Below, in pieces: positions 3,547 through 49,656 of a stretch of 64,000 nt of DNA. Source of the stretch: Gammaproteobacteria bacterium (GTDB lineage Bacteria > Pseudomonadota > Gammaproteobacteria > HIGHO2-12-38-15); NCBI GenBank assembly GCA_016218405.1, contig JACREE010000014.1, forward strand, positions 4,988 to 68,987, in the 5' to 3' direction. A model generated the notes under the pieces. That model made no database searches, was not told where the DNA came from, and worked only from the letters and a program-made list of their open reading frames with translations. Within the stretch, counting starts at the first letter, position 1. The number at the start of each line of letters is the position of its first letter. The position numbers were made by a program, and so were the translations under genes.

Positions 3547-4011
3547 TTATGACAAGTTATAGGAAAACAAATCGTTAGACGCACCACCGCCAGTATTTTC
3601 AAGCGCCAAAACAATAGGGCCCGTGCAATGTGAGTCTAGGAAAGTAGGAGACCATTGATTATTTATCGTTTGCATCTCAAACACACAGGTTCCCAAAACT
3701 TCTGCCGGGCTTGAGGAGGTGGGATCAACATACGTGTAGGTGGCCAGTGTATGTATTTCAGTATTATCAAGCAGACCAAGCCAATCCTCTTTCTCGCCAT
3801 AAGTCATATTAAAAATTTTCACATCTTGCGTATTTGCAGTGATGGTGGCGGGTGGAGACATACTCCCCTCCCCTGATACAAACTGATAGGAAAGCATCGT
3901 CATCACATAGTTCGATTGGTTATTAACAGCCCCGACAACATGAGATTTAGAAAATGGGTTATAAGCAAAAGCCGCTTGGCACCCCATCGCCAATACAACA
4001 ACAAATAACAT
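3547..4011 (-). CDS. hypothetical secreted protein
   Basis: Internal start gives MLFVVVLAMGCQAAFA, a signal-peptide-like N-terminus. No known motif. Confidence 0.35.
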   Translation of the reverse strand: MLFVVVLAMGCQAAFAYNPFSKSHVVGAVNNQSNYVMTMLSYQFVSGEGSMSPPATITANTQDVKIFNMTYGEKEDWLGLLDNTEIHTLATYTYVDPTSSSPAEVLGTCVFEMQTINNQWSPTFLDSHCTGPIVLALENTGGGASNDLFSYNLS

Positions 4012-4096
4012 GGAAAAATATTTATTCACTTTTTCAGCTCCACATAAGTTAATTAGGACAACTATTGTACCGACATCCAAATCATTTCACCAGGCT

Positions 4097-4666
4097 CTAA
4101 CGATGTTCTGGCGCCACCATAAAAATCCCTGGCGCATTTCGTAGGTACTCTTTGTAATCCATCCCATACCCAAACACAAAACCATCGCTGACGGTTAATC
4201 CTGTAAAGTCTGCTTCTGGCAATCCTTCGGGTAAGCGCACGTCTTTTTTATCTAACAACACGGCTGTCAACACTTGTTTAGCTTGTGCTTGAATACAAAA
4301 ATTCACAATTTCTTTTAGGGTGACACCGCCATCTAAAATATCATCCACAATCAACACCACACGATCTTTTAGATCACAACGCGGCTTCACTAACCAATGA
4401 AGCTCGCCTCCTCGCGTAGCACCACGATAGCGTGTCGCATGAATATAATCGACTTCCAGTGGAAAATTTAAACGAGGAAGTAAGTTACCCGCTGGAATTA
4501 ATCCGCCCACCATCACACAAAGAAAAACAGGGTTTTGGTCTGCCAAAGCCCTATTCATTTTTTCTGCCATACGATCTAAGGCATTTTCAATATCTTGCCG
4601 GGTATAAATACATTCTGCTTTATCTTGGACAACACGAACATGGGCTGGGATATTCATAAAATTCAC
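4097..4666 (-). CDS. hpt: hypoxanthine phosphoribosyltransferase
   Basis: PRTase motif VVLIVDDILDGGVTL. C-terminus VFGYGMDYKEYLRN resembles E. coli Hpt VVGYGIDYAQRYRH. 189 aa. Confidence 0.8.
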   Translation of the reverse strand: MNFMNIPAHVRVVQDKAECIYTRQDIENALDRMAEKMNRALADQNPVFLCVMVGGLIPAGNLLPRLNFPLEVDYIHATRYRGATRGGELHWLVKPRCDLKDRVVLIVDDILDGGVTLKEIVNFCIQAQAKQVLTAVLLDKKDVRLPEGLPEADFTGLTVSDGFVFGYGMDYKEYLRNAPGIFMVAPEHR

Positions 4667-5565
4667 ACACTACCCATTTGTCTTTCTTTGATTTCATCCA
4701 GCGTTTTACAGTCAATACAGAGTGTCGCTGTAGGACGTGCTTCTAAACGTCGAATACCAATCTCAACACCACAACTTTCACAATAGCCGTATTCATCTTG
4801 ATCGATCTTGGAGAGCGCTTCTTCGATTTTCTTAATCAATTTACGTTCTCTGTCTCGCGTTCTCAACTCCAAACCAAATTCAGCTTCTTGCGTGGCACGA
4901 TCATTAGGATCAGGAAAGTTAGCTGCCTCATCTTGCATATGGTGAACTGTTCGATCCACCTCTTGCATTAAGTCTTGCTTCCACTGATTAAGCATATGAC
5001 GAAAGTGCTCACGTTGAGCCTCATTCATATACTCCTCACCCGGTTTTTCGGAATAAGGTCGTACACCTACCATACCCAAATCAGATGTCTGCCCAATCTG
5101 TTTTTGAGGCTTCGCTTTTTTAGCAACTTTAACTTTACTTTTTACTTCGATCTCGCTCATAGGTTCCTTCTGGGTCTGCGCTTTAACAAAATCCGTCATC
5201 ACAGTCACATTACTTTTACTGACTGTTTCTTTCACTTTTTCAACTAATTTAATCGGTTTTTTAGCAATACTTTTTTTCACTATCGCTTGAGCGGGTATCA
5301 CGCGCTTAGCCACACTTTTTTTAGGAAATGATTTTTTAGCAACAGGTCGAGAGGATATTTTTTTTGCACTCTTTTTTGCTTTAATGAGTTTTACTACTTT
5401 CTTTGGCACCACCTTCTTTACGGCTGTTTTTTTAGACTTAGATTTGGACAATGTAGACTTAGCTGGTTTTGTTTTGCGGCTCAGCGCTGTTTTTCGAGCA
5501 GGTACCTTCGCCGCTTTCTTTACGCCTTTGGCCTTCACTGGCGCCTTCCTACTTTTTGCTGGCAT
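4663..5565 (-). CDS. dksA: RNA polymerase-binding transcription factor DksA with long lysine/alanine-rich (histone H1-like) N-terminal extension
   Basis: The C-terminal 135 aa are near-identical in pattern to E. coli DksA (KPGEEYMNEAQ..., DEAANFPDPNDRATQEAEF, C4 zinc finger CESCGVEIGIRRLEARPTATLCIDCK). About 160 stop-free lysine-rich codons (AKK/KKV repeats) lie in frame upstream. The true start is uncertain: 5565, or an internal ATG near 5097-5070 for a canonical-length DksA. Confidence 0.75.
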   Translation of the reverse strand: MPAKSRKAPVKAKGVKKAAKVPARKTALSRKTKPAKSTLSKSKSKKTAVKKVVPKKVVKLIKAKKSAKKISSRPVAKKSFPKKSVAKRVIPAQAIVKKSIAKKPIKLVEKVKETVSKSNVTVMTDFVKAQTQKEPMSEIEVKSKVKVAKKAKPQKQIGQTSDLGMVGVRPYSEKPGEEYMNEAQREHFRHMLNQWKQDLMQEVDRTVHHMQDEAANFPDPNDRATQEAEFGLELRTRDRERKLIKKIEEALSKIDQDEYGYCESCGVEIGIRRLEARPTATLCIDCKTLDEIKERQMGSV

Positions 5566-5632
5566 AACGTCTCTCCCTAGTCTGAAACTGAATTTCGGAT
5601 CTTGTAGAGTAGAAGGGGAATTGTCAAGAAAG

Positions 5633-6460
5633 TTAAAATACGCCTATCGTAATTCGCTCATGACCGGCCAAGTCTTTCACAGAACGCACCTCCCTATAAC
5701 CGTTCAACACAAGTAAATCACGCACGGCTGCACCTTGTGAAAAACCATGTTCTAATAACAAACTTCCTCCTGGATATAGATGTTCAACAGCGCACTCCAC
5801 TAACTCCGTTAAGGCTTCTAATCCTGTCTTACCCGACACCAAGGCTTGTCGTGGTTCATCACTTAAAGCAGGTAAATGCGGATCATCTTCCGCCAAATAA
5901 GGTGGATTACTCAAAATAAGATGAAAACGTTGATGAGCTAACGCGGCAAACCAATCGCTTTGCACAAAGCGCACATTTTTGATTCCATTTAAGCCTGCAT
6001 TCGTCTGGGCCACTTCTAACGCTTTTTCAGCATTGTCCACTGCCACGACAGACCAAGCCGGACATTCTCGTGCCAAAGCAAGCGCAATTGCACCCGAACC
6101 TGTACCTAAGTCAGCCACCTGCCTTGCCTCATCATGGGGTAATAACATCAGCGCCGCTTCCACAAGCAATTCTGTTTCAGGTCTGGGGATGAGCACCTGC
6201 GTATTTACTTGCAACTCAAGAGACCAAAACGATTTCCGTCCAACAAGATACGCCAGGGGAACACCTTGCTTACGTTTAGCCAACATTTGTTCGAATAATT
6301 CACGCTGTTGGGAAGTAATCACTTCCTCATCTTTCAATAACAGCGCCAAGCAATCTCGTTGCAACACAAAACCTAATAAAAGACGGGCTTCCAACGCTGC
6401 CACATCAGAATGCGCCTGGAGTTGTTTTGTTGCCTGCTGGAGAAGCTGTTTAACTTTCAT
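5633..6460 (-). CDS. prmC: release factor glutamine methyltransferase PrmC (HemK)
   Basis: NPPY motif (LILSNPPYL), SAM-binding DLGTGSGAIALAL, and similarity to E. coli PrmC along the length. The start was chosen at MKVKQLLQQ by homology; the track ORF extends to 6535. Confidence 0.85.
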   Translation of the reverse strand: MKVKQLLQQATKQLQAHSDVAALEARLLLGFVLQRDCLALLLKDEEVITSQQRELFEQMLAKRKQGVPLAYLVGRKSFWSLELQVNTQVLIPRPETELLVEAALMLLPHDEARQVADLGTGSGAIALALARECPAWSVVAVDNAEKALEVAQTNAGLNGIKNVRFVQSDWFAALAHQRFHLILSNPPYLAEDDPHLPALSDEPRQALVSGKTGLEALTELVECAVEHLYPGGSLLLEHGFSQGAAVRDLLVLNGYREVRSVKDLAGHERITIGVF

Positions 6461-6548
6461 CAAAAAGACCAATGTTTGTTCAAAATAAGTGTCGAAGAAT
6501 AATTTTTGTCGTATTATACGCCTCATGTTTCTCAAGAGGTATTAAATC

Positions 6549-9500
6549 ATGACCAAACCCATCGTCATTCAAGGCGTTTCAAAACAAAAAGCTCATTTTG
6601 TAGGCTGGGTCAGCAAAACGCATTTCCACATCTTGGACATCAGACAAAATCCCACCTTTGCTTGCGTCAAACAGCTGTTGCAACCAGAAACCCTCTCACA
6701 ATCTACACTCGCGGAGCGCAAAGCCGTATTTTCTATTCTCAAGGAAATAGATCATCTGGGCCTTACCTTTCTCCAATTCGCCATACTTGCTTTAGAGGAC
6801 GATGACAGTGTCAAAGAGGTTTTAACACGGCTCGTCGCTCATGAAAATGAGGATGTCAATGCGCTTTCAACACTCACTCACGACTCTGCTTTACACATCG
6901 CGACTCTCCTCAACTTCCCAAAAACAATGGACGCACTTTTAGAATTAGGCGCTGTACCCGACATTATTAATGACGCAGGTTATCCCCCTCTGGCCTTAGC
7001 AGTTTATCTCGACTTTAGTGGCCATCTTGCCCATCCTTTATTGACACATCACAATATTGATCCGCTCATTCCATTTAATGGTGCTGATCCTTTTAGAGAA
7101 ATCCTCACCCTATCCGACCCCGTCATTGTTTCGGCTTTTTTAAACCACCCTATCGTTGGAGAAGAATTAACTGATCTTGTCGATGAAGCAGGCGGCGCCA
7201 GCGTGGTGCTCGGACAACTCTTTGAGCTTTTCCTCCTCACAAAAACCCGAGGTGACTCAGTAAGAGCACAAAATTTTCTGTCTATCTTAACTTCTTTGGT
7301 AGAAAAAGGACTGGATCCCTATGAACAATCGAATGCTGATTCGCCCAGCTTAATCATGCTCTCGATTTTTCATAAAGAGCCGCGTGTGTTTGACGCCGTT
7401 TTTATCGCAGAACGAGATATTTCTGTCTCTCGCACAAACTATCACTGCGTGGATCTTGTTCTTCAATGCGCCGATTTACCCTTCTTTAAACATATCGCAC
7501 GTACCCAAAAACCCTATCTTAATTATCTCATGCAAACTGACCCGCATTTTGCGGTCAAAGTGGCTCATTCGATGCTTGTTTATAATCATTTTAAGGCTCT
7601 CGACTGGCTATTTTTAGATTATCCAAATTTGGCACACATCGATATCAGCCCTTTGTCAAACGGAGGCACGCTCCTATTCAGCGCCGTACTTCGAGGTTTA
7701 TCTCAAAGTGTCTTGGCCCTTTGTCAACGCGGCGCCAACCCTAATATCGCCCTCACAGGTGATTATTATGGACCCGGCTCCAACAAAGTGGCTCTACCTA
7801 ACAATTTTCCAGCTCTTGTGTTTTCACCCAGCATTTATTCAACTTTTCGCGTTAAAAAAGGGGCGACTCCTTTACGCATTGCACTTTTGAATCGTGACTG
7901 GGACAATGTATTTACCCTTTTATTTTACGGCGCTAAATTTTCGTTACATGACAAAGAAGCCCTTCACCCCGTACTACTTGCACTTAGATATAAAAAAATA
8001 GAGTTGATTCGCCTCATTTTAAAAAAAGCATCACCACAACAAGAACGAAAAATATTGCTTTACTTTATCGCTAATAAAATCGCAGCTTATCGATTGGACA
8101 CAAAATTCCTTGTGTTAGAGGCCCTCAAAGCCAACCTACCTTCTTTACTTAAAAAATTAATTTCAACTCACCAAACACATCTTTACCGCGCCACAAAACG
8201 AACCAGAACAATACACTATACCGTCTTACCTCAACGTACCCACCTTTGGATTGAAAATTCAAAAGGGCGAAGTCTATTACACATCGCGCTGTTACTCACT
8301 CCACCCAAAAAAGAAAAAGAAAAAACTGCTTTCCTTAAAAACCAACACAAATGCATACAACTTTTAATAAACGAAATGAAAAAAAGAAACAGCGCTCGTT
8401 ATCAAAAATCAGTGGAAAACATTTTATTTTCGATCCACATTCATCCTCAACATACCGCCCAAATTCTCGAACTTTTAGCCCCCAAAGACCCCCTCGTCAT
8501 TTTAGCCATCCTCGATAAATTCGCCAGCCCAGGAAACACCATTGAGCGCTATTCTGTGATCAGGGAAATCATGCATGTCATTGAGCCCAGTGCATTATTA
8601 CGCCTAGCCAAACAACACGAAAAAACAAATCTAGCACAGTTTGTCACTCAGGAAATGCGTAACTCTATGCCTGTTGCTGATACTTCACCCACCACCACCT
8701 CAACTTCACCTTTAACCATTTTATCTACACCTAAAGCACAACCCAAACCTAAGCAACCTGCATCCACCTCACCCAAACAGGCTGTCGATTCAGCACCCAA
8801 AGATACCCTGTCCCTCTTTATTCAACACACAGCTGATAAGTTACTCACCTTAGCCTTACCAGCTAAAAGACCTTTTTCTCCTTTAGACAGGGCCTATTTT
8901 AATTTTTACTTTTTAAGATTGCTGAAACTCATCAGATCAACCCTTTTAACAGATAAAGATATCGTCTTTAGTAAACAAGTACCCTCTCATTATGTGAGGC
9001 ACCAACAAAAAAGAACGCTGGAGCTGTGTATTGCAAGTTTCATGTCACCCCAAACAGTGATCACAGAGGAAGAACAATCAAATATCATGAGATTTGTTAA
9101 AGAAGATTTACCTAATTTCGAACTTTTTATCCTTCATCTTAAAGAATTAAACTTTGAGGATCGTTGCTCAGAAGAAACAAAAGCCATACAAATGGCAGTG
9201 AACTTATCTACCTGCAGCGATGCCATTCTCGCCCGAACCATACTGCCTTATTTAGACGCCCTCAAAGAGGCATTGGAGATCAAAAAACTTTCTCAAACAG
9301 AATTATCTGTTTTTTTGTGCAATTATTTTATCCAGCTTGCTCCTTATCTTTCTCAGCTCAATATCAGAAGCGTCAGTTTGAAAGACACACTTCAAGCTTG
9401 GATAACACATTGCACTGCCCTCAATGAATCCCGCGCTTTTATTTTTCTGCCCGAAGAAGCCGGCTTTTTCGCACAACACAATCAAAAACGCTTCAACGGC

Positions 9501-20429: not shown

Positions 20430-22832
20430 TCAAGCGACCGCACAAACGCGAGGTGCTGCATCAGGTTCTTGACGATCTTCTCTCCTCGCTGCTTCAACTG
20501 CACAAGACGTCGGTGTTGGAAAAAAGCCACAATTTTTGGGTGCAGCAGAAGGTGTTATCAACGATAATGCTCGATGAAGTTCCGCTGACAATACTTCTTC
20601 TTTCTGTTGATGTTGTTTAACCACTTGTACTTCAATCGCTTCTCTCACAGCATGCACAACCTGTCTGTAACTTGCGCTGCTTGATGACGATGGAGCATTC
20701 GTTGACGAATCAACAGTATCAGATAGCTCTGGCACAATACACCTGATTGTTGTTTTCACAGCAACACCCTTATCATTCCCATTGTTATCATCCTGGGGAG
20801 GAGAAGGCGGGGCAGAGTTCGCGTTATTTCCATTGTCACCCCCCTGGGGAGAAGGCGGCGTACCTTCATCCTGAGTATTTGGCACACCCTGCGCTTTTCT
20901 CTTCGCCATAAAAGTTTGGATGCTTGCTTTTATCCCTCTAAAGAACTTATTCACTTCTTTGACAGCGGTTTCAATAAATTCCATGTATTCACGGAAAGTA
21001 TCCGCAAAAGATTCTGCACCAGCCAAAGCACCCAAGGCAGCCCCCGAACCTTTCGCTGCAGGAAACACATTGCCAATCACATTCCAAAATAAAAACTTGA
21101 GAAGCACCACACCCACAATGATCGTTTTCACTATTTTAGATTTATTGACATAACGCTCCCCACGCCATGCTTCTTTGGCTCGACGAATAATATCTAAGAC
21201 ATCGTTTGTCAGCGTTTTTGCATTATCTTTTGCCGTGTCAGAATGGAATTTCACTTCACCCAAGAAAGAGAAAGCGGCCACAGCCATTGAAATACCTTGA
21301 CACACCAACAGGGGTATTTCATGCAATTTCATGAGCATTTCAGAAATAGTTTGAAAACCACTGTACACGTTTAAAGCACAGCCCAAACACGCCACCACAA
21401 AAAATCCAACAAAGAAAAGTGCCGTGAAAGCCATACGTAAACCATAACGCAAATCAGACTCTTGGTGATTTTCTACTTCCCCAGATACACAACGCGGCAC
21501 CAATCTACGTTTAAATAAATTTTTGAAAAAATCCACAAATTTTTCACCCACGTGTCCTTTACTGGCGCTCACCATGCCACGCAACATCACTGCCGTGAGA
21601 ACAAGCACTGACACCACCGCCACAAAAGCAAAGAGAGGTGGGAAAGCAGCACTCGTCACGCCCAATGCAGTCAAAATACTAATGGCACCTGTGTAGGCAA
21701 AAACACCCGCCACCGCCCCTGTCGCCAACGCCATGAAAAATCCCACCCCCAACGCGGCGCGCTTAAGTGCACTCAACCCTTTAAACATATTAAATAAGTA
21801 GGCAAAAACACTAGGCGTGTTTTTACTGGATAAAGCATAATTGACCGAAAATCCGCCTAGAAAAACAAAGACGGGTATCACCAGTGGAATAGCAGGAAAA
21901 ACGATCAACAACATACCCGCCGTTGCACAGGCACACCCCAACGCAAAAATTAACGCAAAAATTTTACCTATCACATAGAACACTTTGTTAAACTTGCTTA
22001 AGGTAAAAAAAGCTTCGTCTTCAATTTTTTTCTTGGTTTCTTTATCATCCAACACCTTCAAGATGCGTTGACGAATGGCGTTGGCCATTGCTTTTTTTCT
22101 TTCACTTAACTGAAGAGCGGTTTGATAGGCGTCTTCATATACTTGTTCCGCTTTCTTTTTATCCGCATCCGCTTGACGCAAATAATTTTCGCGCGCTGCT
22201 CGACCCTTTTCTGATGCATAGATAGCCGTACTTCCTGTTCTCGTTAAGAAATCCACGAGCATGTCTTCTGAAACTTGTTCATCTAACCCTTTTTTCTTCG
22301 CTTCTTTTAGCTTGTTTTTTTCTTCTTCCAGCAGCGCTTCGAAGCGTGCTTTTTTATCGCTCTCCGAAAAAGTGTTTTCGCTGAGTTCTGGCAACAAACG
22401 TCTGCGTGCGCGGCATTCAACTTCATCTTTATGTCGTTTAGCGGTTTTTTCATCTTCCCCATCTTCATTAGACAAAATGTAAAAAGCTTTGATGACTTCA
22501 CGAATAAAGGCATTTTCTGCTTTGTTATAAAGTGGTTTTTTAAATGTGTCTCGCCCTGCTGCTTTGAGTTTTGCACCTTTCCCTTTTGAGGCATTCAATT
22601 CAAATGAACCCCATTTCACAAACTCTCCCTGAGGCACACTCCCTCTTTCCAGGGCAGGCAACACTTCTTCTTCTGCCAATATGATTTCTCTCAAGGCATG
22701 TCTTTTCGAACCAATCTTAATTCGATCAGGTGGCGAAAAAAATTTCTTGATGCGTTGAGCCCATGTTCCTTTATCTGCACTTTCGGAAGAAGAAAGGGCT
22801 TCTTCTACAATCAACTTCGCTTCAACACCCAT
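20430..22832 (-). CDS. large hypothetical membrane protein (800 aa): charged/coiled-coil N-terminal region, multi-TM core, Pro/Ser/Asn-rich C-terminal tail
   Basis: 800-codon stop-free ORF. Lys/Glu-rich N-terminal region, four or more strongly hydrophobic segments mid-protein, and a low-complexity tail (PPSPQGGDNGNNANSAPPSPPQDDNNGND). No catalytic motif recognised. Confidence 0.5.
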   Translation of the reverse strand: MGVEAKLIVEEALSSSESADKGTWAQRIKKFFSPPDRIKIGSKRHALREIILAEEEVLPALERGSVPQGEFVKWGSFELNASKGKGAKLKAAGRDTFKKPLYNKAENAFIREVIKAFYILSNEDGEDEKTAKRHKDEVECRARRRLLPELSENTFSESDKKARFEALLEEEKNKLKEAKKKGLDEQVSEDMLVDFLTRTGSTAIYASEKGRAARENYLRQADADKKKAEQVYEDAYQTALQLSERKKAMANAIRQRILKVLDDKETKKKIEDEAFFTLSKFNKVFYVIGKIFALIFALGCACATAGMLLIVFPAIPLVIPVFVFLGGFSVNYALSSKNTPSVFAYLFNMFKGLSALKRAALGVGFFMALATGAVAGVFAYTGAISILTALGVTSAAFPPLFAFVAVVSVLVLTAVMLRGMVSASKGHVGEKFVDFFKNLFKRRLVPRCVSGEVENHQESDLRYGLRMAFTALFFVGFFVVACLGCALNVYSGFQTISEMLMKLHEIPLLVCQGISMAVAAFSFLGEVKFHSDTAKDNAKTLTNDVLDIIRRAKEAWRGERYVNKSKIVKTIIVGVVLLKFLFWNVIGNVFPAAKGSGAALGALAGAESFADTFREYMEFIETAVKEVNKFFRGIKASIQTFMAKRKAQGVPNTQDEGTPPSPQGGDNGNNANSAPPSPPQDDNNGNDKGVAVKTTIRCIVPELSDTVDSSTNAPSSSSSASYRQVVHAVREAIEVQVVKQHQQKEEVLSAELHRALSLITPSAAPKNCGFFPTPTSCAVEAARREDRQEPDAAPRVCAVA

Positions 22833-24200: not shown

Positions 24201-26783
24201 TCAATCCGCTGAAAACACCAGCTTATCCTTTTCCAGTTTGACAAAAATTTCATCGCCAGAACTAAAACGACCCGTCAGAATGTCTTTAGCTAGCGGGTTT
24301 TCTACACTTTGTTGGATCACGCGCTTGAGAGGTCGCGCACCATAGACGGGATCATAGCCCGCTTCAGCCAGGTAATCCAAGGCTTTCTCGTCCACTTTCA
24401 GCTTCATATCTTTTTCATGCAAACGTTTGCGCAAATGCTCTATTTGAATGTTGGCCACACGGCGAATTTGTTCTCGTCCCAACGGATGAAACACCACCAT
24501 CTCATCAATACGATTAATGAATTCAGGGCGGAAATGCTGTGTGACCACCTCCATTACCGCTTCTTTCATCTTGTCGTAGGCATTTTTCTTTTCGGCTAAT
24601 TCTTGAATACGTTGCGAACCCAAATTGGAGGTCATCACGACCACCGTATTACGAAAATCAACCGTGCGACCATGCCCATCGGTTAAACGTCCATCATCCA
24701 ACACTTGCAATAAAATATTAAACACATCAGGATGCGCTTTTTCAATTTCGTCTAACAAAATCACTGAATAAGGTTTGCGTCTCACTGCCTCCGTTAAATA
24801 TCCTCCTTCTTCGTAACCCACGTAACCTGGAGGGGCACCAATCAAACGCGCTACCGTGTGTTTTTCCATAAACTCTGACATGTCGATGCGCACCATGGCT
24901 TCTTCTGTATCAAATAAAAAGCCGGCTAACGCTTTGCATAATTCTGTTTTTCCCACACCCGTTGGCCCCAAGAAAAGAAATGAACCGATGGGTCTGTTCG
25001 GATCAGCCAACCCTGCACGCGAACGACGTATCGCATTGGATACCACCGACACCGCTTCATCTTGACCAATGACGCGCTGATGCAATAATTCTTCCATTTT
25101 AAGTAGTTTTTCTTTTTCTCCTTCCAACATTTTAGACACAGGAATATGCGTCCACTTAGATACCACTTCTGCAATTTCTTCTTCAGTTACTTTGTTTCTC
25201 ACTAGCTGTTTTTCTGTTTTTTCTGCTTCAGCTGCTTTCGTGATTTGTTTTTCTACTTCCGGAATGCGTCCGTACTGCAACTCAGACATGCGCGTTAAAT
25301 CACCCGCACGGCGCGCCGTTTCCAATTCCATTCTCAAACGTTCTAATTCGCTCTTGAGATGTTGTGTACCCTGCAAAGATACTTTTTCTGCTTTCCAGAT
25401 TTCCTCTAAATCAGAATATTCTTTTCCTAATTTATTAATTTCTTCCTCTAAATGTTTTAATCGTTTTTTAGACGCATCGTCCGTTTCTTTTTTCAAAGCT
25501 TCTCGTTCGATTTTTAATTGAATTAATCGACGTTCTAAACGATCCATGGATTCAGGCTTAGAATCAATTTCCATACGAATACGGCTGGCGGCTTCATCAA
25601 TTAAATCGATGGCTTTGTCAGGCAAATTACGATCGGTGATGTAACGATGCGACAAAGTCGCTGCCGAGACAATGGCAGGATCCGTAATTTCAACGCCGTG
25701 GTGAATTTCATAACGCTCTTTTAATCCGCGCAAAATCGCAATGGTATCTTCTACGCTGGGTTCGTCCACCAATACTTTCTGAAAACGTCGCTCGAGCGCC
25801 GGATCTTTTTCAATATACTGACGAAATTCATCCAACGTGGTCGCACCCACACAATGCAACTCACCTCTTGCAAGCGCAGGTTTCAACATATTGCCCGCAT
25901 CCATCGATCCTTCGCTTTTTCCTGCGCCTACCACCGTATGTAATTCATCAATAAATAAAATAATTTGGCCTTCTTGTTTGGCCAATTCTTTTAATACCGC
26001 TTTCAATCGCTCTTCAAATTCACCTCGATATTTAGCGCCTGCCACCAGGGCACCCATATCTAACGCCAGCACGCGTTTGTTTTTAAGTCCTTCTGGTACT
26101 TCTCCATTCACAATGCGCTGCGCCAACCCTTCTACAATGGCTGTTTTACCCACACCGGGTTCACCAATTAAAACAGGATTATTTTTAGTACGTCGTTGTA
26201 ACACTTGAATCGTACGACGAATTTCGTCGTCACGACCAATCACAGGATCCAATTTTCCTTCTTCTGCACGCGCTGTTAAATCAATCGCGTACCGAGATAA
26301 GGCTTGACGTGTATCTTCTGCATTAGGATCCGTCACTTGTTCTCCTCCTCGCATTTGTTCAACCGCCGCTTCAAGATTTGTTTTATTGGCACCCGTTTCT
26401 TTCAGTATTTTTCCCAAAGTTCCATTGTCTTCTAATGCAGCCAATAAAAATAATTCACTTGAAATAAATTGATCTTTTCGTGTTTTTGCTAATTTGTCAC
26501 AATAATTTAATAAGCGCCCCAGTGTGTCTGACACATAGACAGAACCTGGCACCCCACTCACCTGGGGGAGACGATCAAGCTCAGCATCCAATTTATCTTC
26601 TAGTTTTGGCAGATTAACCCCCGCCCGCGCCAGCAAAGGACGGGTGGTCCCATTTGATTGGTCAAGCAAGGCCTTCATTAAATGAGCCGGTTCAATGTAT
26701 TGATTTTCTCGACCCACCGCCAAAGATTGCGCTTCTTCCAATGCTGCACGAAATTTTGTTGTTAATTTCTCCACAATACTCAT
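24201..26783 (-). CDS. clpB: ATP-dependent chaperone ClpB
   Basis: 860 aa with two AAA+ modules ([30 protein letters not shown]), a long middle coiled-coil, and end-to-end similarity to E. coli ClpB. Confidence 0.95.
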
Positions 26784-41522: not shown

Positions 41523-44099
41523 ATGTCTCACACCCTCGAGTCTTCACAACATACACCCATGATGCAGCAATACTTGCGCATTAAGGCGCAGCATCCTCAT
41601 ATGCTTTTGTTTTATCGCATGGGTGATTTTTATGAACTTTTTTATGATGATGCGAAGAAAGCAGCTCGATTACTGAATGTTACCTTAACGCAACGTGGGC
41701 AATCAGCAGGACAACCCATTCCTATGGCCGGCGTGCCTTATCATGCCGCAGAAACATATTTGGCAAAATTGGTAAAATTAGGTGAATCGGTTGTTATTTG
41801 TGAACAAGTGGGTGATCCTGCCACCAGCAAAGGGCCTGTTGAAAGACAGGTTTCGCGTATCATCACACCCGGCACTGTAATTGACGATGCTTTTTTAGAT
41901 GAAGGTCATGACACTCTGTTACTTGCCATTGCTTATCAGACGCCCCATTTAGGCTTGGCCACACTGAATATGAGCAATGGACGTTTGCACGTTTTACAAT
42001 TAAGCAGCGCCGCCTTGTATGATGAACTTGCACGCTTAAAACCCAGTGAAATTCTTGTGCCTGAAACTTTTCCTTTTATGGCTGACTTAAAAGAATATGC
42101 TGCCGTTAAAAAACGTCCCGACTGGGAGTTTGATTATCACACCGCGCAACGCCTTTTAACTCAACAATTTAAAACAAAAGATTTAACGGGGTTTGGTTGC
42201 GACGATCATCCTCTTGCTGTCGCAGCAGCAGGATGCTTACTCAATTACGCACAAGAAACACAACGAACTGCGCTCACACATCTCCACACCTTTCACGTAG
42301 AACAACCCAGCGAATGGATTTTACTGGATGCACACACACGCCGTAATCTAGAAATCACCGACAACCGGCAAGGCGAAAAAAAACACACTCTATTTCACGT
42401 CTTAGACCACACGGCCACCGCGATGGGACGTCGCCTTCTACAACGATGGTTACATCAACCCTTACGCTCAACAGTCAAAATTAACTTACGCCAACAAGCT
42501 ATCGCTGACTTATTACAAGATTCTACTCTGCATGAACTTCATGATTTACTTCATCAATGCGGTGACATAGAACGCATTTTAGCACGTGTCGCACTTAAAA
42601 CTGCGCGACCTCGTGATCTAGCAAGGCTCCGAGATACGCTACACGTTTTACCTCAAATAAAAATTCACCTTGAAAAATTAAATTCCCCCACCCTACAACA
42701 ATTAAATCAGACTTTATTTGATTTTTCTGCGCTCTCACAATTATTAAACGCGGCTATCGTTCCCCAACCTCCTGCGCTATTACGCGACGGCGGTATTATT
42801 GCAGAAGGCTTTCATGCTGAATTAGACGAATTACGTTTGTTACAAGAAAATGCAGGCGAATTTTTAATTAAATTAGAACAAACAGAGAAAGCACGAACAG
42901 GCATCAATACACTCAAAGTAGGCTACAATAAAATTCACGGTTTTTATATTGAAGTCAGCCGAGGTCAAGCTGAACACGCCCCTGCTGATTACATACGAAG
43001 ACAAACACTTAAAAATGCAGAGCGCTTTATCACACCTGAACTGAAGGCGCATGAAGAAAAAGTGTTAAGCAGTAGTAGCCGCGCACTCGCACTCGAAAAA
43101 GTGATTTACGAACAAATTCTAGATACTTTATGTAATGACATCGTGAGACTGCAAAAAACAGCTACTGCCATTGCCACATTGGACGTCCTCACTAATTTTG
43201 CTGAACGTGCATACACATTGCGTTTAACTCGTCCAGAGTTTTGCGAACAAACGGGCATTCACATCAAAGCAGGCCGCCACTTAATCATTGAACAACTGTC
43301 TGACACGCCTTTCGTGCCAAATTCAACTTTATTAAATTCAGCACAACGCATGCTCATCATCACAGGCCCCAACATGGGCGGGAAATCCACTTATATGCGT
43401 CAAACTGCACTCATCGTGTTACTGGCTTATGTAGGTAGCTTTGTGCCCGCAGAACAAGCACAAATCGGCCCCATTGATCGTATTTTTACACGCATTGGTG
43501 CAAGCGATAATTTAGCACAAGGCCACTCCACCTTCATGGTTGAAATGACGGAAACTGCCGCAATTCTTCATAATGCTACAGAACAAAGTCTTGTGTTACT
43601 CGATGAAATTGGGCGGGGCACAAGCACTTACGATGGCCTTGCACTTGCATTCTCTTGCGCGGATTATCTTGCCACACGTATCCGCGCCTTCACTTTATTT
43701 GCCACACATTATTTTGAACTTACTCGACTCGCCGATGAAATCAGCACCATCAAAAATCATCACGTGGATGTCATTGAACACAAAGACCGTGTCGTGTTTC
43801 TTTATACCTTACTCGAGGGTCCCGCCAGCAAAAGCTATGGCCTACAAGTTGCGGAATTGGCAGGCGTACCTGCCCCTGTTATCGCACTTGCAAAAGAAAA
43901 ATTAAAACAATTAGAGTTGACACCCGCTCTTCCCACGCCCCAAGCTCCCGCAGATAGTTCGCCTTCCTATAGGCCTATCCTAGAAAAATTACACGCCCTT
44001 AATCCTGATTTGCTGACGCCACGCGAAGCCATGGATGTACTTTATCAGCTTAAAAAAGAGTTACACATTTTGATCGACCAAAGGTCGAACACTGCGTGA
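41523..44099 (+). CDS. mutS: DNA mismatch repair protein MutS
   Basis: N-terminus [42 protein letters not shown] is near-identical to E. coli MutS. Walker [10 protein letters not shown]. 858 aa. Confidence 0.95.
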
Positions 44100-47538: not shown

Positions 47539-49656
47539 GTGTCATTATTTGACGAACTACGCCATGACTTAATTACTTACCTTGATCGAGAGCAGATTGA
47601 GGTTATTCATCGGGCTTACCTACTCGCCTCAGACGCACACAAACACCAACATCGGCGTAGTGGCGAACCTTATATCACCCACCCCCTGGCTGTTGCACAT
47701 ATCCTCTGTTCCTTGCGAATGGACTACCAAAGCATCAGCGCAGCCATTCTCCATGACACCATGGAGGACACACCCATTGAAAAAAACCAACTCATTGAAG
47801 AATTCGGGCAAGAAATAGCCGATCTCGTTGATGGCGTCAGCAAACTCACCCAAATTGAATTCACCACACGCGAGCAAGCACAAGCTGAAAACTTCCGCAA
47901 AATGTTACTCGCCATGAGTCGTGACATTCGCGTTATTTTAGTCAAACTAGCAGATCGCTTGCACAACATGCGTACCCTAGGTGGGCTCCCTCCTGCAAAA
48001 CAACGTCAGAAAGCCATTGAAACGCTTGAAATCTATGCTCCCATCGCCAGCCGGCTAGGCATGTACGCCTTTAAAATGGAGCTTGAAGAGTTGGGTTTAG
48101 CCACACTTTACCCCTTTCGATATCGCGTACTCCAAACTGCCCTTGAACATGTCACAAAAACACGACAAGCCGCCGTCACACAGATTGAAACGGCTTTAAA
48201 AAGTTGCCTTGAAAAACACCATCTCCCCCCCAGCGCCATTTGGTACCATCAGCGCCATCTTTATACTTTGTACAAAAAAATGAAGCGCGAACATCTCTCC
48301 TTCCAAGAAGTCATCGATTTTTTCTCCTTTCGAATTATCGTCGACAATATCGATGATTGTTACCGCGCACTCGGCGCCATTCACAATCTGTACCGCCCCA
48401 TTCCTGAGCATTTTCGCGACTACATTGCCCTCCCCAAAACCAATCACTACCAAGCCTTACACACTACGCTGTTTGGCCCCAATGGCACTCCCATTGAAAT
48501 TCAAATTCGCACCGCTGAAATGGATGAAAAAGCAGAGCAAGGTATTACTGCACACCTTATCTTCAAGAAAGGCAAAACTCTAAAAGAAATTCAAAGCCAT
48601 ACTCAAAATTGGTTACAAGGTTTAATGGATTTACAACAACAAAACACAGATAATCCTGTCGAATTTATTGAAAATGTTAAAATTGATCTCACCCCTAAAG
48701 AAGTGTATGTCTTCACCCCGAAAGGGCGCATTATGGAACTCCCTCTGGGCGCTACACCTGTTGATTTTGCTTATGCTATACATTCTGATATTGGCAATGC
48801 CTGCATCGCTTCAAAAGTAGATAAACGACTTGTGCCACTGAGCACCCCCCTCAGCAATGGCCAAACCATCGAAATTATTACTGCACCAGGTGCACGCCCC
48901 AACCCAGCCTGGCTTAGCTTTATCATGACAAGTAAAGCACGTAGCCATATTAAAAATTACCTCAAAGAACTTAATCATTCAGAATCAGTGGCATTGGGAG
49001 AACGTTTGCTCAAAGGTGCATTAAAAATAATGGGCACCACACTGAGTAAATTCCCTCATCACGCTTTAAAAAGCACTGCTTCAGAATTGGGTTATCCTTC
49101 AAAAGAAGCGCTCTATGAAGCCATTGGCTTAGGCAATCAAATTGCCACGGTGGTGGCACTGCATCTTGCGGAACAAAATGACACCATCACTCCTCCCAGC
49201 AAAAAGAAAAAACGGGCACTCATCATCAAAGGAAATGAAGGCAGAATTTTGCGTTTTGCTGAATGCTGTCACCCCATTCCAGGCGATCCTATTGCAGGCT
49301 TCTTTGAAACAGGGCAAGGTGTAGTAGTACATACTAAGAACTGCCCTGAGGCGGCGCGCACGCAGACACACAACGAACCAGAACATTATCTTCCTGTGCG
49401 CTGGGGAGAAACCCCCGAGGGCGATTTCAAGGTAAAAATCACGGTAGAAGTGATCAACCAACGCGGCGTCTTAGCTCAAATTACCACAGCCATTTCAGAC
49501 GCAGACGCTGATATTCAGAATGTAAATATTGAAGAACATGACGGCAACTACTGCTCTCTTCATTTCACGATTTTGGTGCGGAACCGCACACACCTAGCAC
49601 GTGTTTTTCGACGCCTTCACTCACTTAACGTTGTTTCTCGCTTAGCGCGCCGGTAA
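47539..49656 (+). CDS. spoT: bifunctional (p)ppGpp synthetase/hydrolase SpoT
   Basis: HD hydrolase motif (HPLAVAHIL...HDTMEDT), synthetase domain, TGS and ACT C-terminal domains. 705 aa. Confidence 0.9.
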   Translation: MSLFDELRHDLITYLDREQIEVIHRAYLLASDAHKHQHRRSGEPYITHPLAVAHILCSLRMDYQSISAAILHDTMEDTPIEKNQLIEEFGQEIADLVDGVSKLTQIEFTTREQAQAENFRKMLLAMSRDIRVILVKLADRLHNMRTLGGLPPAKQRQKAIETLEIYAPIASRLGMYAFKMELEELGLATLYPFRYRVLQTALEHVTKTRQAAVTQIETALKSCLEKHHLPPSAIWYHQRHLYTLYKKMKREHLSFQEVIDFFSFRIIVDNIDDCYRALGAIHNLYRPIPEHFRDYIALPKTNHYQALHTTLFGPNGTPIEIQIRTAEMDEKAEQGITAHLIFKKGKTLKEIQSHTQNWLQGLMDLQQQNTDNPVEFIENVKIDLTPKEVYVFTPKGRIMELPLGATPVDFAYAIHSDIGNACIASKVDKRLVPLSTPLSNGQTIEIITAPGARPNPAWLSFIMTSKARSHIKNYLKELNHSESVALGERLLKGALKIMGTTLSKFPHHALKSTASELGYPSKEALYEAIGLGNQIATVVALHLAEQNDTITPPSKKKKRALIIKGNEGRILRFAECCHPIPGDPIAGFFETGQGVVVHTKNCPEAARTQTHNEPEHYLPVRWGETPEGDFKVKITVEVINQRGVLAQITTAISDADADIQNVNIEEHDGNYCSLHFTILVRNRTHLARVFRRLHSLNVVSRLARR

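What the first reader, a model, noticed from the sequence alone, without database searches (positions are those of the whole stretch)
4663..5565. dksA carries a ~160-codon lysine-rich, histone H1-like N-terminal extension in frame
The C-terminal 135 aa are a canonical DksA (coiled-coil DxxDxA tip region and C4 zinc finger). The reading frame stays open for about 480 nt further upstream, encoding AKK/KKV/KSxxK repeats (MPAKSRKAPVKAKGVKKAAKVPARKTALSRKTKPAKS...) before reaching an ATG. A stop-free stretch this long in an AT-leaning genome is unlikely by chance. The composition resembles eukaryotic H1-like or AlgP-like basic DNA-binding tails and the histone-like proteins described in developmental-cycle bacteria. 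A DksA tethered to a nucleoid-binding tail would be an unusual architecture. The alternative is a canonical DksA from an internal start, with the upstream frame being a separate K-rich protein that fused by loss of a stop codon.
Basis: partly seen in the sequence, partly recalled or inferred. Interest (0 to 1): 0.6.

Follow-up and report, generated by a model that had tools for sequence, protein, structure and literature searches.

The report
DksA with a lysine-rich disordered tail
This gene encodes an ordinary stress-response transcription factor (DksA) preceded in the same reading frame by about 150 extra residues of strongly positively charged, unstructured protein; the fusion is real and conserved, turns out to be common in uncultured Gammaproteobacteria, and has experimental precedents in Streptomyces and Xanthomonas.

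Summary
Window 4663..5565 (-) is one 300-codon ORF. Residues 157-298 align without gaps to E. coli DksA 9-150, with the DxxDxA tip and four zinc cysteines intact. The preceding ~148 residues are a disordered polycationic tail; residues 1-118 are 32% Lys, net +41, pI 12.

The tail is very probably translated. The upstream ATG has a strong Shine-Dalgarno sequence in the window and in seven orthologues. All eight keep the frame open although synonymous sites are saturated. A peptide motif (NVTxxxDFxK) is conserved upstream of the internal Met136 that NCBI's annotation of the identical protein uses as start. No canonical dksA locus has a separate K-rich gene upstream, so the stop-loss fusion idea is not supported.

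The architecture is not unusual. Of 74 species-representative loci, 35 carry such a tail, 7 to over 200 residues long. Streptomyces DdbA has a DNA-binding H1-like N-terminus on a DksA-like domain. Xanthomonas DksA was re-annotated from 147 to 256 aa by mass spectrometry and start-codon mutagenesis.

"H1-like" is compositional only: no HC2 profile match and no tandem repeats here.

The likely role, binding DNA or another polyanion, is inferred. A second, short isoform from Met136 is possible but only weakly supported.

The parts
4663..5565 (-). Full dksA ORF: 300 codons plus TGA, giving a 33.8 kDa protein of pI 10.1
   Evidence: The frame is open in the window and in 7 orthologues.
5571..5577 (-). 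Shine-Dalgarno GGGAGAG, 5 nt upstream of the ATG at 5565-5563
   Evidence: Anti-SD duplex is -8.8 kcal/mol here and -7.4 to -13.1 in the 7 orthologues. Background inside the ORF averages about -1.5, with the 5th percentile between -4 and -7.
5599..5627 (-). Promoter-like stretch between the prmC stop (5635-5633) and the dksA start: a perfect TTGACA (5627-5622), then the block CTCTACAAGAT (5609-5599)
   Evidence: Sequence. The CTCTACAAGAT block recurs, exactly or with up to three mismatches, at the same position in L001, L002, L003, L085 and L101. The consensus scan did not call it, because the -10 is weak. Promoter function is inferred.
5212..5565 (-). Polycationic low-complexity tail, residues 1-118 (K 32%, net +41, pI 12), predicted disordered
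   Evidence: Composition. AlphaFold2 pLDDT is about 50 with no secondary structure. No tandem repeats and no Pfam hit. Composition is conserved while sequence diverges (pN 0.41-0.50) among orthologues.
5182..5211 (-). Conserved short peptide motif NVTVMTDFVK (residues 119-128) within the linker, upstream of Met136
   Evidence: N119, V120, T121, D125 and F126 are identical in the window, L001, L101, L002 and L003. The motif is also present in L085. It shows protein-level constraint upstream of the annotated short start.
5071..5181 (-). Rest of the linker (residues 129-165), moderately basic. It holds Met136 and ends at the start of the conserved GVRPY.
   Evidence: pLDDT 42-49.
5158..5169 (-). 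Candidate internal start: SD-like AAGGAA (5169-5164), CCT, then ATG of Met136 (5160-5158). This is the start used in the public 165-aa annotation (P0002).
   Evidence: The ATG and an AAGG[A/G]A or GGAG element are conserved in 7 of the 8 clade members and absent in L085. Duplex is -4.8 to -5.7 kcal/mol, within the best 3-17% of positions in each ORF. The Lys codon is AAG in all five closest sequences, against 28% AAG usage in the tail. Suggestive only.
4666..5070 (-). Canonical DksA core (residues 166-300): coiled coil plus C4 zinc-finger globular domain
   Evidence: pLDDT 80-94, helices 182-215 and 220-255.
4894..4911 (-). Coiled-coil tip DPNDRA (D219, D222, A224), equivalent to E. coli D71, D74, A76
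   Evidence: Gap-free alignment with an offset of 148. These positions are invariant in 36 homologues. Coordinates.
4708..4782 (-). Zinc-finger cysteines: C262/C265 (CESC, 4771-4782) and C283/C286 (CIDC, 4708-4719)
4097..4666 (-). Downstream phosphoribosyltransferase gene. Its possible GTG start overlaps the dksA stop, so it is probably co-transcribed.
   Evidence: The same adjacency occurs in L003 and L085/L086.

Best explanation
The gene makes a 300-residue DksA whose main translation start is the upstream ATG at 5565.

The C-terminal 135-150 residues are a standard DksA. A coiled coil with the DxxDxA tip would insert into the RNA polymerase secondary channel, and a C4 zinc-finger globular domain completes it. 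This part presumably acts with ppGpp as in E. coli.

The first roughly 150 residues are an intrinsically disordered, strongly polycationic tail (+41 over 118 residues). In DksA, the N-terminus sits in the globular domain at the mouth of the secondary channel. The tail should therefore project into solvent without blocking RNA polymerase binding.

The most likely role of the tail is sequence-independent binding to a polyanion, chromosomal DNA first of all. That would keep DksA concentrated on the nucleoid next to its target, and might couple DNA compaction to transcription control, as was proposed for Streptomyces DdbA.

The tail belongs to a continuum. In many Gammaproteobacteria the conserved M-[A/P]-x-K-K-K N-terminus of DksA has been expanded into K/A/P/T/V-rich low-complexity sequence of 7 to more than 200 residues.

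Shown here: the ORF, its conservation, the start signals, the disorder prediction and DksA membership. Inferred: translation in this organism, geometry on RNA polymerase, polyanion binding and its physiological purpose.
For: ORF and DksA identity.

Upstream start:
- A strong SD precedes the upstream ATG in all 8 clade members, far stronger than at any internal ATG.
- The gene begins 67 nt after the prmC stop, behind a conserved promoter-like block.

Conservation:
- Orthologues share the synteny hemA-prfA-prmC-dksA-hpt-ftsE-ftsX.
- They keep the tail in frame. Gene lengths are all multiples of three and every ORF is intact.
- Synonymous sites are saturated (pS 0.52-0.97 across segments and pairs, mostly at or above 0.68). 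Non-synonymous divergence is lower everywhere: pN 0.34-0.50 in the tail, 0.17-0.32 in the linker and 0.04-0.14 in the core.
- The motif NVTxxxDFxK lies upstream of Met136.
- The N-terminal M-[A/P]-x-K-K-K is conserved: K at positions 5 and 6 in more than 80% of 113 long homologues.

Distribution: 35 of 74 evaluable species-representative loci have tails, and their SD-supported starts give the same N-terminus.

Structure: AlphaFold2 puts residues 1-165 at pLDDT about 50 with no secondary structure, and the core at 80-94.

Experimental precedents:
- In Xanthomonas euvesicatoria an MS peptide AAPAAAKPAAKPVASK maps to the extension. Start-codon mutagenesis shows translation from the first GTG, extending DksA from 147 to 256 aa (PMC5559785).
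- In Streptomyces DdbA the H1-like N-terminal domain binds supercoiled and linear DNA in EMSA, whereas the DksA-like domain alone does not (PMC3643593).

Context: spoT lies in the same window, so the organism has ppGpp metabolism.
Against: - There is no expression or proteomic data for this organism.
- NCBI's pipeline annotated the identical protein from Met136 as 165 aa (P0002).
- The tail has no profile match to any DNA-binding family. DNA binding rests on charge and analogy only.
- Similar bacterial K/A-rich tails bind other polyanions: polyphosphate granules for AlgP (PMC9239181) and RNA for PhaF (PMC12818456, abstract seen). The ligand is therefore not settled.
- dN/dS in a low-complexity region depends on the alignment and dS is saturated. 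The selection argument rests mainly on frame preservation, not on the ratio.
- The placement of the N-terminus on RNA polymerase comes from my knowledge of the E. coli complex structures (5VSW/5W1T, listed). It was not modelled here.
Confidence: 0.6

Rival explanations
1. Two isoforms from one gene. The upstream ATG gives the tailed 300-aa form. The conserved internal Met136, with its own weak SD, gives a free DksA of canonical size (165 aa, pI 5.7). The ratio would partition DksA between a polyanion-bound pool and a freely diffusing pool. This extends the best explanation and does not exclude it.
For: - Met136 and an SD-like AAGG[A/G]A or GGAG element 3-4 nt upstream are conserved in 7 of 8 clade members. 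Duplex is -4.8 to -5.7 kcal/mol, within the best 3-17% of positions in each ORF.
- The Lys133 codon is AAG in all five closest sequences, although AAG makes up only 28% of Lys codons in the tail.
- An (E/T)PM(S/T)E motif at the same position occurs in further database homologues: P0040, P0053, P0054 and P0092. Other clades have a Met 18-30 residues before the conserved PY, preceded by K/E/G codons.
- In Xanthomonas a shorter 'processed variant' of DksA accompanies the full-length protein (PMC5559785).
Against: - The internal SD is much weaker than the upstream one.
- The tail is purine-rich, so SD-like strings are common.
- Apart from that Lys codon, no run of synonymous-site conservation stands out around the site.
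- L085/P0004 and most other tailed lineages lack a Met at this position.
- The conserved residues could equally be a peptide motif.
Confidence: 0.2
2. The public annotation is right. Only the 165-aa protein from Met136 (or a shorter one) is made, and the 405 nt upstream are an untranslated leader that happens to be open.
For: NCBI annotated the identical sequence as a 165-aa DksA (P0002). Met136 has a moderate SD.
Against: - A stop-free run of this length has P of 1e-4 to 1e-5 by composition.
- It is preserved in frame in 8 of 8 orthologues across saturated synonymous divergence.
- The upstream ATG has the strongest SD in the region in every orthologue.
- A peptide motif and the N-terminal MxxKKK are conserved.
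- The equivalent extension is experimentally translated in Xanthomonas.
Confidence: 0.04
3. The tail's ligand is not DNA but polyphosphate or RNA. It would recruit DksA to polyP granules or transcripts during starvation, or serve as a polyP/Lon-dependent handle for proteolytic processing to the short form.
For: - The H1-like K/P/A tail of AlgP localises to polyP granules and is needed for their spacing (PMC9239181).
- DksA regulates polyP accumulation in E. coli (Gray 2019, cited).
- The disordered K/A-rich region of PhaF binds RNA (PMC12818456, abstract).
- A processed DksA form is seen in Xanthomonas.
Against: - Nothing in the sequence discriminates between polyanions.
- The one tested H1-like-DksA fusion, DdbA, binds DNA and affects nucleoid condensation and supercoiling.
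- The link to polyP/Lon-stimulated degradation comes from my own recall and is untested.
Confidence: 0.15
4. A formerly separate K-rich (histone-like) gene fused to dksA by loss of its stop codon.
For: None found beyond the two-part composition of the protein.
Against: - No stand-alone K-rich ORF lies upstream of any of 38 canonical dksA loci. The two apparent exceptions are a contig edge (L012) and a frameshifted assembly (L048).
- Tail lengths form a continuum from a few residues to more than 200.
- Canonical-length DksAs already begin M-A-x-K-K-K. That fits in-place expansion of low-complexity sequence.
Confidence: 0.02

Closest known systems
Escherichia coli DksA (151 aa; PDB 1TJL, 5VSW, 5W1T)
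   Same: Residues 157-298 align without gaps to E. coli residues 9-150 (E 2.5e-65). The DxxDxA tip, the four zinc cysteines, and the basic residues at the positions of E. coli R91, K94, K98, R129 and K139 are all present and invariant in 36 homologues. TIGR02420 is passed.
   Different: There are 148 extra N-terminal residues, disordered and net +45, so the whole protein has pI 10 instead of being acidic. Thr replaces E. coli Asn88. The score against the enterobacterial equivalog NF008045 is below its cutoff (239 vs 289).
Streptomyces coelicolor DdbA (SCO2075), an H1-like DNA-binding N-terminus on a DksA-like C-terminus (PMC3643593)
   Same: Same order of parts: a highly basic lysine-rich N-terminal region followed by a DksA-type coiled coil with two Asp residues and a C4 zinc finger. 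This is the only such fusion with functional data: the N-terminal domain binds DNA, and a mutant is affected in nucleoid condensation and supercoiling.
   Different: - DdbA's tail is 93 residues with five S/T-A/T-A-K-K pentapeptide repeats. The tail here has no repeats and is richer in V and S.
- DdbA's DksA-like part is only distantly related to E. coli DksA (blastp 8e-11 according to the paper). The core here is a close orthologue.
- The authors reported DdbA as restricted to streptomycetes, so the two fusions are probably independent.
Xanthomonas euvesicatoria DksA, re-annotated from 147 to 256 aa (PMC5559785)
   Same: A gammaproteobacterial dksA with an in-frame N-terminal extension missed by annotation. 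The MS peptide from the extension (AAPAAAKPAAKPVASK) and the mutagenesis primers (coding AAKKP and AAPKSRKPVAK) show it is A/K/P-rich. Translation from the most upstream start was shown by mutagenesis. As here, an antisense shadow ORF overlaps the extension.
   Different: That genome is GC-rich, so its tail is rich in Ala and Pro, not Val and Ser. It is shorter (about 109 extra residues) and starts at GTG. The paper treats it as an annotation correction and does not discuss the tail's nature or function. Its full sequence could not be retrieved for alignment here.
Bacterial H1-like proteins: Chlamydia Hc2 (Pfam PF07382) and Pseudomonas AlgP
   Same: Lysine-rich, disordered, polycationic composition. 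18 of 36 tailed DksA homologues match PF07382.
   Different: The window's tail does not match PF07382 or any other family even at E of 10 or below. It has no KPAA or pentapeptide repeats. In AlgP the tail is C-terminal and attached to a different domain.

Membership tests
DksA (RNA polymerase-binding transcription factor; TIGR02420, Pfam PF21157 + PF01258) | Profile match above the curated cutoffs | tested here: met
   TIGR02420 scores 174.3 bits against a cutoff of 115.5. PF21157 scores 119.4 vs 27 and PF01258 43.3 vs 24.9. The narrower equivalog NF008045 is below its cutoff (239 vs 289).
DksA | Coiled-coil tip with the two acidic residues (DxxDxA; E. coli D71 and D74) | tested here: met
   D219-P-N-D222-R-A224 aligns to E. 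coli D71-P-V-D74-R-A76. These positions are invariant in 36 homologues. The helical hairpin 182-215/220-255 has pLDDT of about 90.
DksA | C4 zinc finger (E. coli C114, C117, C135, C138) | tested here: met
   C262, C265, C283 and C286 are present and invariant.
DksA | Residues reported to contact ppGpp at site 2 (E. coli R91, K98, R129, K139; residue list recalled from the literature, not checked here) | tested here: met
   The equivalent R239, K246, R277 and K287 are present and invariant in the 36-sequence alignment.
DksA | Binds the RNA polymerase secondary channel and potentiates ppGpp | not testable with these tools
   Needs in vitro transcription or binding assays.
Histone H1-like nucleoprotein HC2 (PF07382) | Profile match | tested here: not met
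   No hit for the whole protein at E of 1 or below, nor for residues 1-164 at E of 10 or below. 18 of 36 tailed relatives do match. Matches to this low-complexity profile are largely compositional.
Histone H1-like tails (H1 C-terminal domain, AlgP, DdbA) | Short K-rich peptide repeats (S/TPKK, KPAA, S/T-A-A-K-K) | tested here: not met
   No tandem repeats at the DNA level. The protein shows irregular KK/KKx spacing without a repeating unit.
Histone H1-like tails | Lysine-rich, intrinsically disordered, high net positive charge | tested here: met
   K 32%, net +41, pI 12 over residues 1-118. pLDDT is about 50 with no secondary structure.
Histone H1-like tails | Binds and condenses DNA | not testable with these tools
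   Needs EMSA, AFM or localisation experiments. The only support is the DdbA precedent.
DdbA (Streptomyces SCO2075 orthologues) | Orthology to SCO2075, in a conserved position near ftsZ in streptomycete genomes | not tested
The paper reports orthologues only in streptomycetes. Here the gene sits between prmC and a phosphoribosyltransferase gene. I treat it as an analogue, not a member.

The most novel reading that the evidence does not exclude
A large, undescribed class of gammaproteobacterial DksA proteins carries an expandable polycationic tail that tethers the stringent-response factor to the nucleoid or to polyphosphate. In this clade one mRNA would yield both a tethered 300-aa form and, from the conserved internal Met136 start, a free 165-aa form. 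The cell could then tune how much DksA is available to compete for the RNA polymerase secondary channel.
Probability: 0.15. Interest if true: 0.65.

Novelty: new member of a known kind. Interest (0 to 1): 0.42.

Why it matters
DksA is the partner of ppGpp in the proteobacterial stringent response, and almost everything known about it comes from tail-less proteins of about 150 residues. Three points follow.

1. In this sample about half of gammaproteobacterial species representatives encode a DksA with a polycationic disordered tail. Models based on free diffusion and competition with GreA/GreB for the secondary channel may not transfer to those organisms.

2. The papers found in the library searched describe such a fusion functionally only for Streptomyces DdbA, which was reported as genus-specific. 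In Xanthomonas it appears only as an annotation correction. The breadth of the trait seems to be unreported.

3. There is a practical consequence. NCBI's annotation of this very genome starts the protein at Met136 and leaves about 400 nt as apparent intergenic DNA. Xanthomonas had the same error plus a spurious antisense gene. Low-complexity N-terminal extensions like this one are probably under-annotated systematically.

Tried and rejected
- Tandem Repeats Finder on 4600-5700 found nothing, so 'repeats' was dropped.
- Pfam on the isolated tail at E of 10 or below gave only a chance EIIA-man hit. No profile-level H1/HC2 assignment is possible for this protein.
- The consensus promoter scan did not call the TTGACA/CTCTACAAGAT region, and the total number of sites equals the shuffle expectation. 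The promoter is therefore only an inference from conservation.
- Looking up contigs for the 165-aa public protein P0002 returned nothing.
- The genome-contig scan returned no close relative of the window organism; the best core identity was about 80%. It served as a distribution sample instead.
- A clade-specific DNA pattern scan of metagenome contigs gave 19 stretches but only one new clade member, L101.
- I tested for synonymous-site conservation around the internal SD/ATG in five sequences. Beyond Lys133 AAG and Ser137 AGC, no run of conserved codons stands out. Internal initiation stays a hypothesis.
- dN/dS could not be estimated properly because dS is saturated in most comparisons.
- Placing the organism by ClpB was inconclusive. 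Identity is 85-90% to unnamed MAGs and about 77% equally to Legionella species and Thiohalobacter. The 'developmental-cycle bacterium' angle was left open.
- Literature searches for a described gammaproteobacterial H1-like DksA found only the DdbA and Xanthomonas papers. Hits on Herbaspirillum and Cupriavidus concerned unrelated H1-like proteins.
- The Legionella DksA paper gave no information on protein length.
Full report
**1. What is in the sequence**

Window 4663..5565 on the minus strand is a single ATG-initiated ORF of 300 codons.
- Pfam places DksA_N at residues 184-254 and the dksA/traR zinc finger at 259-288.
- NCBIfam TIGR02420 (dksA) is passed, 174 bits against 115.5.
- Against solved structures, residues 157-298 align without a gap to E. 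coli DksA residues 9-150 (E 2.5e-65). E. coli residue n therefore corresponds to residue n+148 here.
- The tip DxxDxA (D219, D222, A224), the four cysteines (C262, C265, C283, C286) and the basic residues at the positions of E. coli R91, K94, K98, R129 and K139 are present. They are invariant in a 36-sequence alignment.

The part of the protein beyond E. coli Met1 is 148 residues.
- Residues 1-118 are 32% Lys with net charge +41 and pI 12.
- Residues 119-165 are a mildly basic linker.
- The core has pI 5.1.

AlphaFold2 with a 36-sequence alignment gives pLDDT of about 50 and no secondary structure for residues 1-165. The core scores 80-94, with helices 182-215 and 220-255.

There are no tandem repeats at the DNA level. 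The tail matches no Pfam family even at E of 10 or below.

**2. Is the open frame more than chance, and is it translated?**

- At the window's composition (42.3% GC), 165 stop-free codons have P of about 1e-4. With the A-rich composition of the stretch itself, P is about 9e-6. The other two sense frames contain 16 and 18 stops.
- The ATG at 5565 is preceded by GGGAGAG, with an anti-SD duplex of -8.8 kcal/mol. Positions inside the ORF average -1.6.
- The gene starts 67 nt after the prmC stop. That spacer holds a perfect TTGACA and a block, CTCTACAAGAT, that recurs in relatives. A consensus scan did not call a promoter there.

I recovered seven orthologues with DNA: L001, L002, L003, L085, L087, L088 and L101.
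- Where enough flanking DNA is held, they share the neighbourhood hemA-prfA-prmC-dksA-hpt-ftsE-ftsX, or part of it.
- All have a long ORF of 259-299 codons, a strong SD (-7.4 to -13.1 kcal/mol) at the upstream ATG, and a K-rich tail in frame.
- Synonymous sites are saturated (pS 0.52-0.97, mostly at or above 0.68), yet no stop or frameshift has accumulated. pN is 0.34-0.50 in the tail, 0.17-0.32 in the linker and 0.04-0.14 in the core.
- A peptide motif, NVTxxxDF(V/L)K (residues 119-128), is conserved upstream of Met136.

The same kind of extension is translated in Xanthomonas euvesicatoria.
- Proteogenomics found the peptide AAPAAAKPAAKPVASK upstream of the annotated start.
- Start-codon mutagenesis placed initiation at the first GTG, lengthening DksA from 147 to 256 aa.
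- A shorter 'processed' form was also seen (PMC5559785).

I therefore regard translation of the full 300 residues as very likely. The public 165-aa annotation of the identical sequence (P0002) is probably a start-site error.

**3. How common is it?**

- Of the 120 best database homologues, 113 are at least 200 aa and the median length is 255 aa. This ranking is biased because the tail adds score.
- A less biased sample is the 80 species-representative genomes whose dksA best matches the query, mostly through the core.
- Taking the in-frame ATG with the best SD as the start, 74 loci are evaluable. Their tail lengths are:
  - canonical length: 39 loci, for example Kangiella, Thiodiazotropha, Halopseudomonas and Methylococcus;
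  - 7-49 residues: 17 loci;
  - 50-99 residues: 12 loci;
  - 100-149 residues: 4 loci;
  - 150 residues or more: 2 loci.
- The loci with tails include Methylohalomonas, Thiohalomonadaceae, Chromatiales and Pseudohongiellaceae MAGs.
- Long and short forms start alike, with M-[A/P]-x-K-K-K.
- No canonical locus has a separate K-rich gene upstream. The two apparent exceptions are a contig edge and a frameshifted assembly.

Together these points indicate in-place expansion and contraction of an N-terminal low-complexity segment, not fusion of two genes. The window's tail is at the long end of a continuum.

**4. What it most likely does**

The core has everything needed to act as DksA, and spoT is encoded in the same window. 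The tail is a disordered polycation.

The only tested fusion of this kind is Streptomyces DdbA.
- Its tail alone binds supercoiled and linear DNA, and its DksA-like part does not.
- The mutant is altered in nucleoid condensation and supercoiling (PMC3643593).

By analogy, and because a +41 segment will bind nucleic acid, I take non-specific DNA binding that tethers DksA to the nucleoid as the leading model. This is inference.

Other bacterial K/A-rich tails bind polyphosphate granules (AlgP, PMC9239181) or RNA (PhaF, abstract). The ligand is therefore open.

From my knowledge of the E. coli RNA polymerase-DksA structures, the DksA N-terminus lies in the globular domain outside the secondary channel. 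A tail there should not block insertion of the coiled coil. I did not model this.

**5. A possible second isoform**

- Met136, the start used by NCBI, is conserved in 7 of the 8 clade members.
- It is preceded by AAGG[A/G]A or GGAG with a 3-4 nt spacer. The duplex is -4.8 to -5.7 kcal/mol, within the best 3-17% of positions in each ORF.
- The Lys codon in that element is AAG in all five closest sequences, although AAG accounts for only 28% of Lys codons in the tail.
- Against this, L085 lacks the Met, and no wider synonymous conservation is seen. Most other tailed lineages have no Met there.

Internal initiation is a reasonable hypothesis and no more than that.

**6. Comparison with what is known, and novelty**

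- The protein is a member of the DksA family; all sequence-testable defining features are met.
- It works like DdbA in architecture but is not a DdbA orthologue as far as can be judged.
- It is the same kind of protein as the long Xanthomonas DksA.
- Calling the tail 'histone H1-like' is justified for composition and disorder only. It is not justified for repeats or profile similarity in this protein, although 18 of 36 relatives match Pfam HC2.
- Searches of the held literature found no description of tailed DksA as a widespread gammaproteobacterial trait.

I file it as a new member of a known kind. The individual finding is not surprising once the databases are consulted. The breadth of the trait and the possible isoform switch are the interesting residue.

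**7. Organism**

The contig belongs to an uncultured gammaproteobacterial MAG.
- Its ClpB is 85-90% identical to proteins of unnamed MAGs, one of them a groundwater 'RIFCSPHIGHO2' bin.
- It is about 77% identical to both Legionella species and Thiohalobacter.
- An ankyrin-repeat ORF next to prmC hints at a host-associated lifestyle.

Placement remains uncertain.

Noticed in passing
window 5158-5565 (-), versus protein P0002: The public (NCBI) annotation of the identical sequence starts DksA at Met136 (165 aa). That leaves about 400 nt of coding sequence looking like intergenic DNA. Gene callers used for other collections call the full-length form in relatives (P0001, P0003, P0005).
   Followed up: yes
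window 4975-5247 (+) and 5384-5716 (+): Phe-rich ORFs of 90 and 110 aa lie antisense to the K-rich tail (TTT opposite AAA). They are almost certainly shadow ORFs. In Xanthomonas the equivalent antisense ORF, XCV2557, had been annotated as a gene and was proposed for deletion.
   Followed up: partly
window 5257-5433 (-) and 5116-5121 (-); locus L048: The tail contains eight runs of 6-8 A (the longest, 8 A, at 5358-5365), while the core has none. Such runs are prone to slippage and sequencing error. In L048 the K-rich region upstream of dksA is split over three frames. This looks like homopolymer frameshift errors, or real slippage variants.
   Followed up: partly
window 6549-10593 (+): In relatives prfA and prmC are adjacent (hemA-prfA-prmC-dksA). 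Here a 1065-aa ankyrin-repeat ORF (6549-9746) and a YkuD L,D-transpeptidase-domain ORF (9835-10593), both on the opposite strand, lie in the roughly 5 kb (6536-11658) that separates prmC from prfA (11659-12735). This looks like an insertion of effector-like genes, suggestive of a host-associated lifestyle.
   Followed up: partly
window 4657-4668 (-): The dksA stop (TGA, 4665-4663) overlaps a possible GTG start (4666-4664) of the downstream phosphoribosyltransferase gene, and an ATG follows at 4657. In L085 the two genes abut exactly (3801/3802). This suggests co-transcription and perhaps translational coupling.
   Followed up: no
window 5599-5627 (-); same position in L001, L002, L003, L085, L101: A block CTCTACAAGAT about 35-45 nt upstream of the dksA start is conserved (exactly or with up to three mismatches) across genomes whose synonymous sites are saturated. 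In the window a perfect TTGACA lies 12 nt upstream of it. It may be the dksA promoter or an operator. E. coli dksA is autoregulated, as I recall it.
   Followed up: partly
window 47539-49656 (+): A bifunctional SpoT/RelA-family (p)ppGpp synthetase/hydrolase gene lies about 42 kb from dksA in the same window. clpB (24201-26783) and mutS (41523-44099) are also present.
   Followed up: no
window 20430-22832 (-) and 3547-4080 (-): ORFs of 800 aa and 177 aa have no Pfam match. The 800-aa one also has no NCBIfam match at 1e-10; the 177-aa one was not scanned against NCBIfam. Function unknown.
   Followed up: no
loci L009, L021, L024, L036, L040, L041 (Thiodiazotropha, Sedimenticolaceae): DksA proteins of canonical length in these lineages still begin MAQKKA, MTAKKK or MAVKKK. 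This is the same N-terminal motif that heads the long tails, as if it were the seed from which the low-complexity tail expands.
   Followed up: partly
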